From: a virus
Taxonomy: Duplodnaviria; Heunggongvirae; Uroviricota; Caudoviricetes
IMG/VR virus record: IMGVR_UViG_2740892258_000006
Length of the DNA stretch: 16,486 bases
Reading direction: 5' to 3' (one strand)
Part shown: positions 7,981 to 12,993 of the stretch, in pieces
How positions within the stretch are numbered: the stretch's first letter is position 1
How the letters are laid out: each line of letters begins with the position of its first letter
Notes under the pieces: generated by a model
What the model saw: the letters and a program-made list of their open reading frames with translations, nothing else
The model's database searches: none
Told to the model about the DNA's origin: nothing
Program-made: the position numbers and the translations under genes

Positions 7981-8092
7981 ACCGCAGGAATTTGCTTTTG
8001 AAGCGTTAATGCATGATGCAACAGAAGCGTATTGCCACCGCAGGAATTTGCTTTTGAAGCGTTAATGCATGATGCAACAGAAGCGTATTGCC
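7981..8092. repeat. Perfect tandem duplication, 2 x 56 bp (7981-8036 = 8037-8092)
   Basis: Identical copies read directly from sequence. Confidence 0.95.
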
Positions 8093-8222
8093 AGGACATC
8101 CCCGCGCCGCTGAAACGCCTTCTTCCTGACTATAAACGGATGGAAGAAAAAATAGACGCCGTAATCCGTGAGAAATACGGGTTACCCCCGGTTATGAGTA
8201 CGCCCGTGAAATATGCCGATCT

Positions 8223-8334
8223 CATCATGCTGGCAACCGAACGCCGCGATCTCGGGCTTGATGATGGCTCTTTCTGGCCATCATGCTGGCAACCGAACGC
8301 CGCGATCTCGGGCTTGATGATGGCTCTTTCTGGC
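8223..8334. repeat. Perfect tandem duplication, 2 x 56 bp (8223-8278 = 8279-8334)
   Basis: Identical copies read directly from sequence. Confidence 0.95.
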
Positions 8335-8552
8335 CCGTACTGGAAGGTATCCCGGCAACAGAGATGTTCAAAGTTATTCCACTGTCGCCAGGCCATACCT
8401 ATGGGATGTTTATGGAACGCTTTAAAGAGTTAACTGAGTCGTAAAAATCAGCACGTACGAATTCAAACTCTGCCATAAAAGAACATATAAGTAATTTATT
8501 AACATATAGATATAGGTTATATTACAAATTGAAAAATTATTGGAGAGCAACA

Positions 8553-9419
8553 ATGAATCAAAATCCATTCTCATTCTATGACTTTCTTGGATATTTAATA
8601 CCAGGTGGTTTTTTTATCCTATTAATGTATTTCTGTGGTTTGACATTCGATCTAGATATTGTTATTGACTTAAGTGAATTGCTCAGAGGTCAAAGTCAAA
8701 TCTTTGGCATTTTGAACTACGCTTCAATAGTTATTATATCTTATATAGCTGGACATTTTATTTCTATCACGTCAGCATTTTTTATCGAAAAATACATGAA
8801 TAAAGAATTAGGATATCCTTCCAAATATCTATTTAAAAAATTGATAGATACCTCAGAAAGCATTTGTAGCCCATCATGCGATGAGAGAAGCGCTGATAAA
8901 AAAACAAAAATAAAGAATCGCATAATCAAATGCGTATTATGTCCAATAATACTATGGGATTTTATAACACAAAAACTATGTTATTCTCAATCTCTACCAT
9001 TTCATTTAGCTAATACAACATGGTTAATGATCAAAGAAGGTTATGAGAAAAAGTTCATAACAAATCGCCAATTATTACAAGATAAAAACGGACTTGATGA
9101 TGATCTCTTCAGATTGGCATATCATTATGTTTATGAGTTTTCAAAACAACATCAAACAAAAATTCAAAACTATGTTGCATTATATGGTTTTTGCAGAAAC
9201 ATATGTTTAATCTTTATAATTTCATTTTGGGTATCAGTTCCAACCTTTATTTATCGATTATGTACTCATAGTGATTATCTTTATAGTTTACTTTCAATAA
9301 TGCTTAGCTTTTTCTTCGTCTATGTTTTCTATGTTGGTTTTGTTAAATTTTATAGAAGATATACTTTAGAAGTATTAATGGCATTTGCTGTACTTCAAAG
9401 TAACGACACTATTCGTTAA
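8553..9419 (+). CDS. AT-rich multi-pass membrane protein (4-5 predicted TM helices), moron of unknown function
   Basis: ATG 8553 with GGAGA 7 nt upstream; hydrophobic segments FLGYLIPGGFFILLMYF, IFGILNYASIVIISYIAGHFI, ICLIFIISFWVSVPTFIY, LLSIMLSFFFVYVFYVGFV; strongly AT-rich versus neighbours. Confidence 0.6.
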   Translation: MNQNPFSFYDFLGYLIPGGFFILLMYFCGLTFDLDIVIDLSELLRGQSQIFGILNYASIVIISYIAGHFISITSAFFIEKYMNKELGYPSKYLFKKLIDTSESICSPSCDERSADKKTKIKNRIIKCVLCPIILWDFITQKLCYSQSLPFHLANTTWLMIKEGYEKKFITNRQLLQDKNGLDDDLFRLAYHYVYEFSKQHQTKIQNYVALYGFCRNICLIFIISFWVSVPTFIYRLCTHSDYLYSLLSIMLSFFFVYVFYVGFVKFYRRYTLEVLMAFAVLQSNDTIR

Positions 9420-9460
9420 TAATGTTGCTCCCGTGTGCAGACGGGATAATGGAGAAACGT

Positions 9461-9667
9461 ATGCTGAACCTCGATTGTGTTCCTATCTCAACTTATTGCA
9501 AAGAAACTGGCGAAACTCCTGAAGCAATAAACAAACGTGTACAGCGCGGTGTTTGGCGTGAAGGTGTTCAGGTTTTAAAGGTTGAAGGCGTTAAGGAGAG
9601 GTGGATTGATCTTAGTGAGGTTGCAAAATGGGCCAGACAAAACTGCTCAAACTACCGCGCGGCGTAA
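9461..9667 (+). CDS. xis: Excisionase-like protein (Xis)
   Basis: Small basic protein directly upstream of and overlapping int; start at ATG 9461 (GGAG 6 nt upstream) within ORF 9422..9667. Confidence 0.6.
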   Translation: MLNLDCVPISTYCKETGETPEAINKRVQRGVWREGVQVLKVEGVKERWIDLSEVAKWARQNCSNYRAA

Positions 9668-10800
9668 CAATCAGGAAACACCACCAGGGAGAAACGATCA
9701 ATATAACTTTCACCTACAAAGGAGTTAGATGTCGTGAGCCGCTTTCCAATCTGGAAGTAACACCAAAGAACATTAAATACGCCGAGCGTACACTCGGCGA
9801 AATCCATAATAAGATCGAAAGGGGAACATTCATTTATGCAGAATATTTTCCCCGTTCTGCTCGTTTGAAAATTTTTGGTAATGCTGCTGCAAGCAAAACG
9901 GTAAAGATGTACCTGGACGAATATCTTGAAATCTGCGAAACAAGAAAACTTTCACCCTCTACGATTGGTGGCTATAAAAAATGCCGTAGTGCGTTAGCCT
10001 CACTTCACATTTGCCCTGCAAGTGAATTAACACCAGCAACCCTGAAAGCGTGGATTCAAAGCCAGAAAACAACCTTAAAAACCATTCGCAACCAGTTATC
10101 TTTCCTACGGTCAGCACTTGATGAAGCCGTGACCGATGGGGTACTTCAAATTAACCCCGTATCGTTAGTAACAGCTTCGCGCTACCAAAGTGATAAGTCA
10201 GAAGCAGAAAGCAGCTATGTGGTTGATCCGCTATCACCAGCAGAAGTTGATGCATTACTAGCAGCAGCCGGAAACAAACAATGGGAAAATCTGTTCCGGT
10301 TCGCCATACATACAGGCCTGCGTAGTTCTGAATTATGTGCCCTACGATGGCATGATATCGACTTTGTTGGAAAAACAGCCCATGTTCAGAGCGCAAGTGT
10401 TGTCGGAGTTATCAAAGGAACAAAGACAAAAGCCGGTACCCGTAAAGTTGAACTGACTGAAGAAGCAATGTTGGCGTTGATAAACCAGAAGCCATTTACA
10501 TTCATGAAGGATGCTACTGTCTTTGAAGATCCAAAGACCAATAAACCCTGGGCAAGTGCTGATGCAATTAGGAAAAAAGCATGGGTGCCAACATTGCGAA
10601 AAGCAGGTATTCGTTACAGAAACCCATATCAAACCAGGCATACATTCGCCACCAGCCATATCAGCCGGGGAGCAAACCTGTTTTGGCTTGCGGCTCAAAT
10701 GGGCCATAAAGGGCCTGAAATGTTATTCAGGCACTATGGACAATACTTGAAAGAGTATGATGGGAGGGCAAGTATCAAGGATAAAAAGGCTTTATTTTAA
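9628..10800 (+). CDS. int: Tyrosine site-specific integrase (lambda-type with N-terminal arm-binding domain)
   Basis: 390 aa; catalytic-domain signatures HTGLRSSELCALRW (Arg), RHTFATSH (His-x-x-Arg), GHKGPEMLFRHYGQY (His...Tyr). Confidence 0.9.
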   Translation: MGQTKLLKLPRGVTIRKHHQGETINITFTYKGVRCREPLSNLEVTPKNIKYAERTLGEIHNKIERGTFIYAEYFPRSARLKIFGNAAASKTVKMYLDEYLEICETRKLSPSTIGGYKKCRSALASLHICPASELTPATLKAWIQSQKTTLKTIRNQLSFLRSALDEAVTDGVLQINPVSLVTASRYQSDKSEAESSYVVDPLSPAEVDALLAAAGNKQWENLFRFAIHTGLRSSELCALRWHDIDFVGKTAHVQSASVVGVIKGTKTKAGTRKVELTEEAMLALINQKPFTFMKDATVFEDPKTNKPWASADAIRKKAWVPTLRKAGIRYRNPYQTRHTFATSHISRGANLFWLAAQMGHKGPEMLFRHYGQYLKEYDGRASIKDKKALF

Positions 10801-11409
10801 GTCATTATGCCAATCGTCTACTGTTTGAAACCAAATTTTTAACCTTTGCATAAAGGTACGATCCTTTTTGGGAGGGTGGTACCTTTGAAAAGAAGTATGT
10901 AACGCTTCGATAACTCCCATACAAGCATCAATTACTTCTTGTGCTTTAACCGGGCGATCGGCATCTGAAAGCTTGTGAGCGACCTCACAATCCAGAGTTG
11001 CTTTCTCTAGTACAGATGAGAACACCTCGTCAGGTATATACAGTCCTCTGCTTTCCAAAATGCAAATCAGTTTGGAAACTTGTTGAGCTTTAGCCAAGAT
11101 AGTTAACAAGTATGAAACAGAAGCCTTTGTTCTATCCTTTTGCAACCTTAACAATCGATGCTTTGATGCTCTAATTTTAGGTTGAGTTGTCTGACTGAGC
11201 CAATAGTTAGAAGAAATATCAGAAATTTCAATAACTAACTTTGAAATAGCATCAATAATTGATTTCGATTCAGAACGTGTCGCCAGTTTTACAGAATTAT
11301 TGTACGCAACTCGCCATCCAATGAAAACTAAGCAGACGCTAACTACTGTGATACACCACGAATACTGTCCTATTTGTGCTACTAATGACATTGGTTCCGT
11401 ACTGATCAA
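10792..11409 (-). CDS. Cargo operon gene C: membrane-anchored protein (one N-terminal TM helix, helical soluble domain), unknown function
   Basis: TTG start at 11409 with AAGAGG overlapping upstream stop (alternative ATG 11391); TM segment YSWCITVVSVCLVFIGWRVAY; 3' end overlaps int by 9 nt. Confidence 0.6.
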   Translation of the reverse strand: MISTEPMSLVAQIGQYSWCITVVSVCLVFIGWRVAYNNSVKLATRSESKSIIDAISKLVIEISDISSNYWLSQTTQPKIRASKHRLLRLQKDRTKASVSYLLTILAKAQQVSKLICILESRGLYIPDEVFSSVLEKATLDCEVAHKLSDADRPVKAQEVIDACMGVIEALHTSFQRYHPPKKDRTFMQRLKIWFQTVDDWHNDLK

Positions 11410-11419
11410 CTATCGCCTC

Positions 11420-11746
11420 TTATACTCTTTCTGGTTGTGCTAAATCAATAAATTTATCAATCTGTTCTTTGTAGAACGGAACATCACTTTTTATAATCAA
11501 ACGTGCTTTAACGTTGGCTTTAGGTATCCCTTCCTTACGGATGAGACCTCCAAACGCCTCTTCTAAGAAAGAGGAACCAACACCCAGTGCTATACCGCGA
11601 AAATCAACCACAATCTCCTGTTCAGTACCCTTCAGCGCAGGCACCAAAAACTCTCTACGAAATCTTTCCGCACTGTGTGGGCTATCCGTTGTGTAACGTC
11701 CGAAAGGTGTTCTGGAGAACTCCTTCGCTATGACGATATTTCTCAT
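11420..11746 (-). CDS. Cargo operon gene B: small STAS-like protein (DUF4325-like, tentative)
   Basis: 108 aa; AGGAG 8 nt upstream of ATG 11746; motif EIVVDFRGIALGVGSSFLEEAFGGLI resembles STAS-like DUF4325 as I recall it; 4-nt gap to gene A. Confidence 0.6.
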   Translation of the reverse strand: MRNIVIAKEFSRTPFGRYTTDSPHSAERFRREFLVPALKGTEQEIVVDFRGIALGVGSSFLEEAFGGLIRKEGIPKANVKARLIIKSDVPFYKEQIDKFIDLAQPERV

Positions 11747-11750
11747 AAAA

Positions 11751-12662
11751 TCATCTCCTGGGAACCAGCGACCATTGTAGTAAAGTACCCGGTATGTACT
11801 CAGCTAGCTTCTCACATCGAGGACTACTGTCATTAGAATTATAGCTATAACGAGCCCTTCCTGTTAGTATCAGAAGTGTCTCATTATCCTCACAACCTGC
11901 CCCAATAGGTCTCTTGATATCTTCAGAGCCATTTCCCCGTCCGGAACCAACAAAGCGGGATTCCCCTACTAACATAGCTCTTTCCACAGAAGATACTTCG
12001 TTTTGAATGCTATGACCATCACCATTAGGCACGAAACTTCTATAAATCCCCAATCCAAGGTCACAAACGATAAAAACGACTTTATTTTCATCACGATTGA
12101 ACCAAGCGCACTGCCACCATCGTTTACCTTTGAGAAGCTGAATATCTGACTCGAACCCCTCATCTTCATACGCATGATGAGAAACATTGAGCAAAGCTTC
12201 ACTAATCGCTGTCAGCAGTAAGCCTAACTGTTCATTATTAAGCAGAGCACTTTTCTGCAGCATGAGTACTGTTTCAACAATATGCTCGTAAGGTTCGACA
12301 GCTGACTGAAAGTATCGTTCCTCCCTCGTAAGTGCATTCAGTTTCTCTTCTGTGCCAGCAAGCAAAGCACGAGCAAGTCCAGTACCAACGATCCATCTAT
12401 GCCCAGATGGGTTATCATCCTTTTTAGGCCATTTAAAACGTATAAAATTAGGGTCCCGGGTTAAAAATTGAGCTCTATTTACTATGGCAAAGAACAGTAC
12501 CGATGCCGCAGCTGAGGCAAATTTTACCTTGGACAAATCAACTATAACTCGACCTTTATTTTTTACTCCAATCGATTCAATCGAGTTGATGAAGTTCAAT
12601 GTCCCAGCCCTAGAATCATCTGAGTAAATGCAAAATTTGCTTGGGGGTACCAGTATGGTCAT
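11751..12662 (-). CDS. Cargo operon gene A: GHKL (histidine-kinase-like) ATPase with unassigned N-terminal domain
   Basis: 303 aa; Bergerat-fold motifs in the C-terminal half: N-box EALLNVSHHA, G1 CDLGLGI, G2 GSGRGNG. Confidence 0.65.
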   Translation of the reverse strand: MTILVPPSKFCIYSDDSRAGTLNFINSIESIGVKNKGRVIVDLSKVKFASAAASVLFFAIVNRAQFLTRDPNFIRFKWPKKDDNPSGHRWIVGTGLARALLAGTEEKLNALTREERYFQSAVEPYEHIVETVLMLQKSALLNNEQLGLLLTAISEALLNVSHHAYEDEGFESDIQLLKGKRWWQCAWFNRDENKVVFIVCDLGLGIYRSFVPNGDGHSIQNEVSSVERAMLVGESRFVGSGRGNGSEDIKRPIGAGCEDNETLLILTGRARYSYNSNDSSPRCEKLAEYIPGTLLQWSLVPRR

Positions 12663-12813
12663 AGCGATGTCATTCTTATACGATGGATTTATAGATTATC
12701 TACTATTCATAGTTGGTTATGAAGACTGGGATATAACAGTAAAAGATACGTGTAAGATCCGCAAGATAGTTAATGTCGAAAAAATCATTAATTACATCAA
12801 GTTAGTGATATTT

Positions 12814-12851
12814 GGACTCGGGTTCAACTCCCGCCAGCCAATCATGATTGG
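12814..12851 (+). other. Candidate att remnant: 25-nt match to the 3' end of tmRNA/ssrA (GGACtCGGGTTCAACTCCCGCCAGC) followed by perfect palindrome CCAATCATGATTGG (12838-12851)
   Basis: Recalled E. coli ssrA 3' end is ...GGACGCGGGTTCAACTCCCGCCAGCTCCACCA; one mismatch here and divergence after CAGC. Confidence 0.55.
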
Positions 12852-12970
12852 ACGGTGTAAGGACTACACCAACAAAAACAGGAAGTTATAAGTCTCAGCA
12901 GGACACCGACCAGACGGTGAGGAGACAAAAAAGGATACGCAACGGAGTCGCGACTCCCTATGACATTAAA

Positions 12971-12993
12971 GCCCGCTGATGCGGGCTTTTTTA
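12971..12993 (+). terminator. Rho-independent terminator (gcccgc-tgat-gcgggc + T6)
   Basis: Perfect 6-bp GC stem, 4-nt loop, T-run; lies about 130 bp downstream of the ssrA-like fragment. Confidence 0.65.

What the first reader, a model, noticed from the sequence alone, without database searches (positions are those of the whole stretch)
11751..12662. Gene A may fuse a STAS-like N-terminal domain to the GHKL ATPase
Residues about 30-70 (GRVIVDLSKVKFASAAASVLFFAIVNR) look like the beta-strand/helix core of STAS domains, upstream of the ATPase motifs. A kinase-like ATPase carrying its own partner-like domain, plus a separate STAS-like gene B, would be an unusual architecture (intra- versus inter-molecular partner switching).
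Basis: inference. Interest (0 to 1): 0.5.

Follow-up and report, generated by a model that had tools for sequence, protein, structure and literature searches.

The report
Prophage kinase–STAS–membrane protein defence-like cassette
Gene A really is a SpoIIAB-like kinase with its own divergent STAS domain, and with its two downstream genes it forms an uncharacterised, membrane-protein version of the VapK–VapS–VapC anti-phage toxin–antitoxin system described in 2026, carried as cargo at the end of an E. coli prophage.

Summary

The architecture is not unprecedented. A profile of gene A's wider family matches VapK over both domains (hhalign 98.3%, E 1.5e-14) and CapK (95.8%). Both are STAS-GHKL kinases published in 2026. 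Gene B belongs to the same Pfam family (DUF4325) as VapS, and its Ser58 aligns with the VapS phospho-acceptor Ser48.

The third gene differs. Instead of a PIN nuclease, gene C encodes a single-pass membrane protein. This kinase, STAS, membrane-protein order was found in all 22 loci examined. The kinase family has 2318 cluster representatives and no curated model.

The internal STAS has an invariant Ala at the canonical phospho-site, so intramolecular partner switching is not favoured.

The most likely function is a prophage-borne abortive-infection or toxin-antitoxin-like switch. That function is inferred, not shown.

The parts
11751..12662 (-). Gene A: 303-aa two-domain protein (STAS-like N-domain plus GHKL kinase/ATPase). 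A VapK/CapK-type kinase.
12297..12662 (-). N-terminal STAS-fold domain of A (residues 1-122).
12474..12554 (-). A51 and A53 are invariant in 45 close homologues. S/T50 is present in 43 of 45.
   Evidence: F48 aligns with VapK F54.
11754..12296 (-). GHKL (SpoIIAB/RsbW-like) domain of A (residues 123-303). It contains the N-box EALLNVSHHAY (12168-12200), the G1 box DLGLG (12048-12062), the G2 box RGNG (11928-11939) and the family-specific KGKRWWQ (12111-12131).
11420..11746 (-). Gene B: 108-aa stand-alone STAS-like protein (DUF4325), the VapS equivalent. The predicted phospho-acceptor is S58 (S58-S59 lie at 11570-11575) in the invariant GSSFLEEAFGGLIR motif.
   Evidence: Pfam PF14213, E 6e-14. 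Family alignment. The best PDB sequence hit of all is VapS 9z7o_A, with S58 aligned to VapS S48. VapS is itself PF14213, E 1.3e-17. HHalign against VapS 78%, P 1.9e-5.
10792..11409 (-). Gene C: 205-aa protein (RefSeq start at 11391 gives 199 aa). It has one N-terminal transmembrane helix (11305-11361), a conserved juxtamembrane GW...R45xE47 motif, and a helical cytoplasmic domain with a TLDCE motif. It is the putative effector, sitting where VapC sits in vapKSC.
   Evidence: No Pfam, NCBIfam or PADLOC family. phrog_30059, function unknown. Hydropathy and alignments. The same kind of gene is third in 22 of 22 loci. No PDB relative.
12695..12723 (-). Sigma-70-like promoter match just upstream of A. 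It is weak and within chance expectation.
   Evidence: 5 sites found against 6.5 expected.
9628..10800 (+). Prophage tyrosine integrase, convergent with the A-B-C operon.
   Evidence: Pfam Arm-DNA-bind_2 plus Phage_integrase. RefSeq annotation.
12803..12844 (+). Remnant of the last ~42 nt of ssrA (tmRNA gene). This is the right attachment site of the prophage, so A-B-C is the last cargo inside the element.
   Evidence: In strain JA0072, smpB-ssrA-glaH are contiguous. The match to the window starts 42 nt before the end of ssrA. Sequence read.

Best explanation
Genes A, B and C form one operon carried as cargo at the integrase/attR end of an ssrA-integrated prophage.

A is a Ser/Thr protein kinase of the anti-sigma-factor (SpoIIAB/RsbW) GHKL class with a divergent STAS domain permanently fused to its N-terminus. 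It belongs to the same superfamily as VapK and CapK. B is a small stand-alone STAS protein (DUF4325), the counterpart of VapS. C is a single-pass inner-membrane protein with a ~165-residue cytoplasmic helical domain.

Proposed mechanism, by analogy with VapKSC and inferred rather than shown:
- In uninfected cells, unphosphorylated B binds the cytoplasmic domain of C and keeps it inactive.
- An infection or stress cue activates A. The cue is possibly a nucleic acid bound in the groove between A's STAS and GHKL domains.
- A phosphorylates B on Ser58, at the N-terminus of STAS helix alpha2.
- Phospho-B lets go of C.
- C damages or permeabilises the membrane, arresting the cell and aborting phage replication.

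On this view the internal STAS domain of A is a regulatory or ligand-sensing module, not a phospho-acceptor.
For: Shown here:
- Two-domain fold of A.
- ATP-binding and catalytic motifs invariant in 141 diverse relatives.
- The A family is homologous to VapK over its full length (hhalign 98.3%, E 1.5e-14; hmmsearch 58.9 bits) and to the STAS plus GHKL part of CapK (95.8%, 35.3 bits). SpoIIAB scores only 17.8 bits.
- B and VapS are both Pfam DUF4325.
- VapS is the best hit of the B profile in the whole PDB, and B S58 aligns with the VapS phospho-site S48. S58 is at least 90% conserved and S59 is invariant.
- The gene order kinase, STAS, small membrane protein, with 4-10 nt gaps or overlaps, holds in 22 of 22 loci from Enterobacterales, Vibrionaceae, Pasteurellaceae, Alteromonadales, Pseudomonadales and metagenomes.
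- Position inside the prophage, next to attR.
- One distant member sits between type I RM, CTD7/MC3/LmuB_C genes and AbiE. Neighbours in 19 loci include 4 integrases, 3 S24 repressors and 2 RM S subunits.
- Patchy distribution: 126 of 5426 complete E. coli genomes carry at least 80% of the cassette.

From the literature (PMC13373217):
- VapK, VapS and VapC give about 2-log protection against phage Bas42.
- The VapS S48E mutation releases VapC.

Hints for nucleic-acid sensing in this family:
- CapK K237-G-K239-R aligns with A's K178-G-K-R181, which is followed by the invariant W182-W183.
- 35 of 141 relatives carry a ~45-aa Lys/Arg-rich N-terminal tail.
Against: - There is no experimental or co-folding evidence here for A-B or B-C contacts, for phosphorylation, for toxicity of C or for phage defence.
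- C has no detectable relative of known function. It could be a sensor or anchor rather than a toxin.
- None of the three proteins hits any PADLOC defence model.
- Many of the loci are small islets among housekeeping genes rather than clear defence islands.
- The residue aligned with the VapK DNA-stacking F54 (A F48) is aromatic in only 28 of 45 close homologues and in a minority of the wider family. The trigger is therefore unknown.
- The close-family profile alone matches VapK only weakly (55%, GHKL half only). CapS does not match B at all.
- A is not found in sequenced phage genomes by tblastn, although all three genes have PHROG families.
Confidence: 0.5

Rival explanations
1. Intramolecular partner switching. 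The N-terminal STAS of A acts as a built-in pseudo-substrate or autophosphorylation site. It occupies the kinase's partner-binding surface and competes with B, as proposed for the multidomain Rv1364c of M. tuberculosis.
Against: The exact position of the SpoIIAA phospho-serine is an invariant Ala (A51), within an AAA run. An N-cap Ser/Thr is a common structural feature. The separate protein B keeps the canonical Ser. In the homologous CapK and VapK models, the internal STAS lines a DNA-binding groove and the substrate STAS docks at the active site.
Confidence: 0.12
2. C is not a toxin but the membrane-anchored sensor or scaffold of the module. It would report membrane perturbation or DNA injection to the A-B pair, or mediate superinfection exclusion for the prophage. 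The output would be B or phospho-B acting on another target.
For: C has a conserved juxtamembrane motif (G31, W32, R45, E47) and a long cytoplasmic helical domain, but no recognisable pore or enzyme domain. The operon lies in a prophage accessory position where exclusion genes are common. C diverges much faster than A and B: 29 word-search homologues against more than 150.
Against: The cassette also occurs outside prophages with no other conserved partner gene, so any output must lie within the three proteins. In the experimentally studied homologue, the third gene is the toxin. Swapping nuclease and transmembrane effectors is a common pattern in defence systems (my own knowledge).
Confidence: 0.2
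3. A classical partner-switching module that controls transcription. A would be an anti-sigma factor or kinase that sequesters a sigma factor or other regulator, and B would be its antagonist.
For: The GHKL half is structurally closest to SpoIIAB, RsbW and UsfX. NCBIfam gives a faint RsbW match (E 0.12).
Against: There is no sigma factor, PP2C phosphatase or DNA-binding domain in the operon or nearby in any locus. B has no HTH, unlike CapS. The invariant third gene is a membrane protein.
Confidence: 0.05
4. The N-terminal domain is not a STAS domain but a generic alpha/beta (ClpP/crotonase-like or Rossmann-like) module that resembles STAS by chance.
Confidence: 0.05

Closest known systems
VapKSC toxin-antitoxin-like anti-phage system (VapK STAS-GHKL kinase, VapS STAS antitoxin, VapC PIN toxin). 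Chambers et al., EMBO J 2026, PMC13373217. VapS-VapC structure: PDB 9Z7O.
   Same: Same three-gene order. The kinase has the same two-domain STAS-GHKL architecture with no HTH, and is homologous over its full length (hhalign 98.3% with the broad profile). The second protein is in the same Pfam family, DUF4325, and its conserved Ser aligns with VapS S48. Both occur in mobile or defence contexts.
   Different: The third gene is a single-pass membrane protein with no detectable similarity to PIN/VapC. A's family is a separate clade: VapK scores only 15 bits against the close-family profile. It is much larger, with 2318 cluster representatives at 50% identity against 289 reported vapKSC loci. The VapK F54 equivalent is not conserved. 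A has family-specific invariant W182-W183.
CapK-CapS, a DNA-damage-activated kinase and repressor pair upstream of CBASS, Bub and Thoeris operons (same paper).
   Same: The STAS plus GHKL core of the kinase is homologous (hhalign 95.8%, E 7e-9). The KGKR stretch that contains the CapK DNA-contact residues K237 and K239 aligns with A's K178-R181. The substrate is a separate STAS-domain protein phosphorylated on the alpha2 serine.
   Different: A lacks the N-terminal HTH of CapK. B lacks the C-terminal winged HTH of CapS and shows no profile similarity to CapS. No immune operon lies downstream, only gene C and then a convergent integrase.
SpoIIAB-SpoIIAA and RsbW-RsbV partner-switching modules of Firmicutes and Actinobacteria.
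   Different: No sigma factor or PP2C phosphatase is present. The kinase carries its own STAS domain. The output is a membrane protein. Pfam HATPase_c_2 matches only below threshold.
Rv1364c of Mycobacterium tuberculosis, a PAS-PP2C-RsbW-like kinase-STAS multidomain protein. The domain composition is from my own knowledge; the structure of its RsbU/RsbW domains is PDB 3KE6.
   Different: The domain order is reversed there (STAS is C-terminal), and phosphatase and PAS domains are present. Its STAS is a phospho-acceptor, whereas A has Ala at that site.
SiaB-SiaC of Pseudomonas aeruginosa (PDB 6KKO).
   Different: The proteins are separate, the output is different (diguanylate cyclase SiaD, from my own knowledge), and no sequence similarity was detected.

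Membership tests
VapKSC-type kinase/STAS/toxin systems | Kinase subunit made of a STAS domain followed by a GHKL kinase domain. | tested here: met
VapKSC-type kinase/STAS/toxin systems | Kinase homologous to VapK. | tested here: met
   Broad A-family profile against VapK: hhalign 98.3%, E 1.5e-14, columns 3-309 against residues 2-286; 58.9 bits. The close-family profile gives only 55% and 15 bits, so A is in a distinct clade.
VapKSC-type kinase/STAS/toxin systems | Small STAS (DUF4325) protein encoded immediately downstream, with a conserved Ser/Thr at the VapS S48 position. | tested here: met
   B is PF14213, E 6e-14. VapS is PF14213, E 1.3e-17. B S58 aligns with VapS S48. S58 is at least 90% conserved with S/T.
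VapKSC-type kinase/STAS/toxin systems | Third gene encodes a VapC-like PIN nuclease toxin. | tested here: not met
   Gene C has no Pfam, NCBIfam or PADLOC hit and carries one transmembrane helix. A membrane protein is third in 22 of 22 loci.
VapKSC-type kinase/STAS/toxin systems | Conserved aromatic residue for single-stranded DNA binding (VapK F54, CapK W68). | tested here: inconclusive
   F48 aligns with F54. The position is aromatic in only 28 of 45 close homologues and in a minority of the 141 distant ones.
VapKSC-type kinase/STAS/toxin systems | Kinase-dependent phosphorylation of the STAS protein, toxin release and phage protection. | not testable with these tools
   Needs biochemistry and phage assays.
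CapK-CapS transcriptional controllers | N-terminal HTH on the kinase, and a winged HTH on the STAS protein. | tested here: not met
   A starts directly with the STAS domain. The longer relatives have Lys/Arg-rich tails, not an HTH. B is 108 aa of STAS only and has no similarity to CapS.
CapK-CapS transcriptional controllers | Located directly upstream of an immune operon that it regulates. | tested here: not met
   Downstream lie only gene C and a convergent integrase.
SpoIIAB/RsbW-type partner-switching modules | Anti-sigma-type GHKL kinase domain with N, G1 and G2 boxes. | tested here: met
SpoIIAB/RsbW-type partner-switching modules | Cognate sigma factor and/or PP2C phosphatase in the locus. 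| tested here: not met
   None in the window or in any related locus.
STAS domain (N-terminal domain of A) | STAS alpha/beta fold. | tested here: met
STAS domain (N-terminal domain of A) | Match to the Pfam STAS, STAS_2 or DUF4325 models above threshold. | tested here: not met
   Only 7 of 45 members match, at E 0.019-0.046.
STAS domain (N-terminal domain of A) | Phosphorylatable Ser at the start of helix alpha2 (anti-sigma antagonist subclass). | tested here: not met
   SpoIIAA S58 aligns with the invariant A51. S/T50 lies one residue earlier.

The most novel reading that the evidence does not exclude
The A-B-C triad defines a large, unnamed family of anti-phage or stress-triggered suicide modules, with over a thousand sequence clusters across Gammaproteobacteria and metagenomes. 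In it, a ligand-activated STAS-GHKL kinase phosphorylates a DUF4325 STAS 'antitoxin' to unleash a single-pass membrane toxin. That would be the membrane-effector counterpart of VapKSC, and probably the commonest form of this kinase/STAS switch. It would also assign a function to most of Pfam DUF4325.
Probability: 0.4. Interest if true: 0.7.

Novelty: new variant of a known kind. Interest (0 to 1): 0.55.

Why it matters
If the model is right, it would do four things:
- Add a new effector class, a membrane protein, to the just-discovered phosphorylation-controlled STAS antitoxin mechanism.
- Show that this switch is far more widespread than the 289 vapKSC and 443 capKS loci reported.
- Give a working hypothesis for DUF4325 and for a kinase family that no curated model recognises.
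- Explain a conserved accessory cassette in ssrA prophages of extra-intestinal pathogenic E. coli, Salmonella and Klebsiella.

The model is directly testable with a three-gene clone and four point mutants.

Tried and rejected
- PADLOC models for A, B and C: no hit.
- NCBIfam: only a faint RsbW match.
- PDB sequence search with the A profile: only RsbW, E 0.47.
- tblastn of A against 50,697 phage genomes: nothing. Against plasmids: 2 weak hits.
- VapK against viral contigs and plasmids, to build a VapK family profile: 0 and 2 hits. VapK, CapK and VapS were therefore compared as single sequences taken from the paper's supplementary files.
- Close-family profile A1 against VapK and CapK was weak (55% and 21%). 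Widening the profile with 140 distant family members resolved it.
- B profile against CapS: no similarity.
- N-terminal extensions of long family members against the CapK HTH: no similarity. They are basic tails.
A1 gave 15 loci.
- Foldseek of the N-domain against the PDB: no significant match.
- PDB profile search for C: nothing meaningful.
- Literature searches for DUF4325, STAS-like plus phage, and partner-switching plus anti-phage found nothing on this triad. The Francisella MtvS paper and the eLife 2020 conflict-systems paper mention STAS only in passing.
- A co-fold of A with B, and access to model coordinates to measure the S50-to-ATP distance, were not available.

Full report
**1. What is in the sequence**

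The window is E. coli chromosome of the extra-intestinal pathogenic type. It is 100% identical to strains PA45B, NU14, IHE3034 and UM146.

Gene A is the 303-codon ORF at 12662-11751 on the minus strand. Gene B (11746-11420, 108 aa) follows 4 nt later. Gene C (11409-10792, 205 aa) follows 10 nt after that; RefSeq starts C at 11391.

Curated libraries say little:
- A reaches only 22.9 bits on Pfam HATPase_c_2, below the 27.4-bit cut-off.
- B is Pfam DUF4325, 'STAS-like domain of unknown function' (E 6e-14).
- C matches nothing.
- None of the three matches a PADLOC defence model.
- All three fall in PHROG families of unknown function.

**2. The fold of gene A**

The AlphaFold2 model built on 45 homologues (41-87% identity) is confident: pLDDT 88.4, pTM 0.89. 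Residues 1-122 form a beta-alpha-beta domain. Residues 123-303 form a GHKL domain.

Sequence evidence is sub-threshold but consistent. Pfam STAS-type models touch 7 of 45 members at E >= 0.019. HHalign of the N-domain profile places SpoIIAA (P 8e-4), VapS (P 1.3e-4) and the CapK STAS (P 1.6e-4) in the expected strand-beta3/helix-alpha2 register.

The ATP-binding motifs are invariant across 141 diverse relatives, so the domain is very probably an active kinase or ATPase. These motifs are E155/N159/H163/Y165, D201xGxG205 and R242-G-x-G245.

**3. The family and its genomic company**

A word-indexed search finds 163 homologues of A, mostly in Enterobacterales and Vibrionaceae. A full profile search of 1.84 billion cluster representatives finds 2318 at E <= 1e-3 and 1199 at E <= 1e-10. 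Nearly all of the best 150 match from end to end. The two-domain fusion is therefore old and fixed.

I examined 22 loci in total. Seven came from exact-protein look-ups, including relatives as distant as E 1e-24. Fifteen came from a scan of one genome per species. In every one, the kinase gene is followed immediately by a DUF4325 gene (E 1e-24 to 1e-49 against the B profile). A 130-210-codon gene for a small membrane protein comes next.

Most third genes share with gene C:
- an N-terminal transmembrane helix ending in GW;
- a juxtamembrane R-x-E motif (E47 invariant);
- a TLDCE-like motif.

In two distant loci the hydrophobic helix is C-terminal instead.

**4. Context**

In strain JA0072, smpB, ssrA and glaH are contiguous. 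The similarity to the window begins 42 nt before the end of ssrA. Window 12803-12844 is thus the displaced 3' end of the tmRNA gene, that is, attR. Everything to its left is an ssrA-integrated prophage, with cI-like ymfK, yfdN to yfdR and the integrase.

A-B-C is the last cargo between the integrase and attR, a typical accessory-gene position. The same arrangement is seen in Salmonella.

Elsewhere the triad is a 2-kb islet among unrelated genes (Photobacterium, Rheinheimera). In one metagenomic contig it sits between a type I RM specificity gene, CTD7/MC3/LmuB_C genes and AbiEii/AbiEi.

Among 141 neighbouring proteins from 19 loci, the recurrent families are phage integrase (4), S24 repressor (3), phage structural or replication proteins and type I RM S subunits (2). 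The rest are housekeeping genes.

Only 126 of 5426 complete E. coli genomes carry the cassette.

**5. Comparison with what is known**

A literature search for STAS plus GHKL plus defence found Chambers et al., EMBO J 2026 (PMC13373217).
- CapK (HTH-STAS-GHKL) phosphorylates the STAS-wHTH repressor CapS on the alpha2 serine. It does so when single-stranded DNA binds a groove between its STAS and GHKL domains.
- VapK (STAS-GHKL) phosphorylates the small STAS antitoxin VapS on S48, which releases the PIN toxin VapC. The vapKSC operon protects against phage Bas42.
- The paper mentions neither DUF4325 nor membrane effectors.

I took the VapK, CapK, CapS and VapS sequences from its supplementary files. 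The results were:
- The close-family profile of A matches VapK only weakly (55%).
- A profile widened with 140 distant family members matches VapK over the full length (98.3%, E 1.5e-14, 58.9 bits).
- The same profile matches the STAS plus GHKL part of CapK (95.8%, E 7e-9, 35.3 bits). SpoIIAB scores 17.8 bits.
- VapS is itself a DUF4325 protein (E 1.3e-17).
- VapS is the single best hit of the B profile in the entire PDB.
- B S58 aligns with VapS S48. S58 is Ser/Thr in at least 90% of the B family and S59 is invariant.

A and B are therefore a VapK/VapS-type kinase-substrate pair from a separate and much larger clade. The third gene is not a PIN nuclease but a membrane protein.

**6. The internal STAS domain**

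In the HHalign register, the SpoIIAA phospho-serine falls on A51. This residue is invariant within an AAA run.

A Ser/Thr at position 50 is common (43 of 45 close relatives, 106 of 141 distant ones). It is the helix N-cap, and it is absent from VapK and CapK.

F48 aligns with VapK F54, the putative DNA-stacking residue needed for defence. It is aromatic in only 28 of 45 close homologues.

On the GHKL side, the CapK DNA-contact stretch K237-G-K239-R aligns with A's K178-G-K-R181. That stretch is followed by W182-W183, which are essentially invariant family-wide. A quarter of the wider family carries a ~45-residue Lys/Arg-rich N-terminal tail.

These features fit a ligand-sensing role, possibly for a nucleic acid, better than a pseudo-substrate role. 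Neither role is shown.

**7. Mechanism and confidence**

The best-supported reading is a VapKSC-like switch:
- B holds the cytoplasmic domain of C inactive.
- A cue activates A.
- A phosphorylates B on S58.
- C is freed to damage the membrane, giving abortive infection or growth arrest.

The kinase-substrate relationship rests on homology and conserved residues and is fairly strong. The roles of C and of the trigger are inferred by analogy and context. Overall confidence is 0.5.

The rivals are set out in the Rival explanations section with their refuting tests:
- intramolecular partner switching (0.12);
- C as a sensor or anchor rather than a toxin (0.2);
- classical sigma-factor control (0.05);
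- N-domain not a STAS domain (0.05).

**8. Verdict**

What remains new is the effector and the scale. This is a kinase-STAS-membrane-protein triad that is conserved, widespread, absent from defence-system catalogues and untested. I rate it a new variant of a known kind, with interest 0.55.

Noticed in passing
window 12803-12844 (+), and terminator at 12968-12989 (+): This is the displaced last ~42 nt of ssrA (tmRNA gene), i.e. the prophage attR, followed by a strong stem-loop terminator. ARAGORN and Rfam report no tmRNA in the window because only the 3' end is present. The whole window left of 12803 is therefore prophage.
   Followed up: yes
relatives of gene A: P0339-P0390: 35 of 141 distant family members carry a ~45-residue N-terminal tail that is extremely rich in Lys/Arg (MKKLS..KRRKRRK..). 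It shows no similarity to the CapK HTH. It may be a nucleic-acid-binding appendage.
   Followed up: partly
window 12111-12131 (-), gene A residues 178-184 (KGKRWWQ): W182-W183 are invariant across the whole kinase family but absent from VapK, CapK and SpoIIAB. They sit next to the stretch that aligns with the proposed DNA-contact lysines of CapK. This may be a family-specific ligand site.
   Followed up: partly
gene B against PHROG phrog_5816: The PHROG profile that B matches is 441 positions long, and B covers only positions 341-439. Some phage proteins therefore seem to carry the DUF4325 domain at the C-terminus of a much larger protein. Database entry P0084 (280 aa) also joins part of A to a DUF4325 domain, which may be a fusion or a frameshift.
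   Followed up: no
L012 1-9262 (metagenomic contig ERZ27253010 k141_480432): This is a dense defence island around a distant triad: type I RM specificity subunit, CTD7, MC3 and LmuB_C-domain genes, then kinase-DUF4325-membrane protein, then AbiEii/AbiEi.
   Followed up: partly
L025 7184-7699 and L026 7332-7757: In two distant loci (Candidatus Azophilus, Pseudomonadales MAG) the third gene has its hydrophobic helix at the C-terminus instead of the N-terminus. It does not match the gene C profile, which suggests effector replacement within the family.
   Followed up: no
window 9422-9667 (+) and 9628-10800 (+): An 81-aa ORF overlaps the start of the integrase gene by 40 nt. Its position is excisionase-like, and it has no Pfam match.
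   Followed up: no
window 8001-9500: GC content drops to 29-38% just upstream of the integrase, against 54% in the flanking chromosome. This is a second compositionally foreign patch inside the prophage. RefSeq annotates two hypothetical proteins there.
   Followed up: no
NZ_CP070045.1 (E. coli FDAARGOS_1303), region matching window 10700-12900: In this strain the otherwise identical cassette region is interrupted by an IS3-family transposase. The match is split in two pieces spanning 3.5 kb.
   Followed up: no
L004 1-5725 (Rheinheimera aquimaris): Two NERD-domain genes and two DUF1240 genes lie just upstream of the triad. This may be another small accessory or defence cluster.
   Followed up: no
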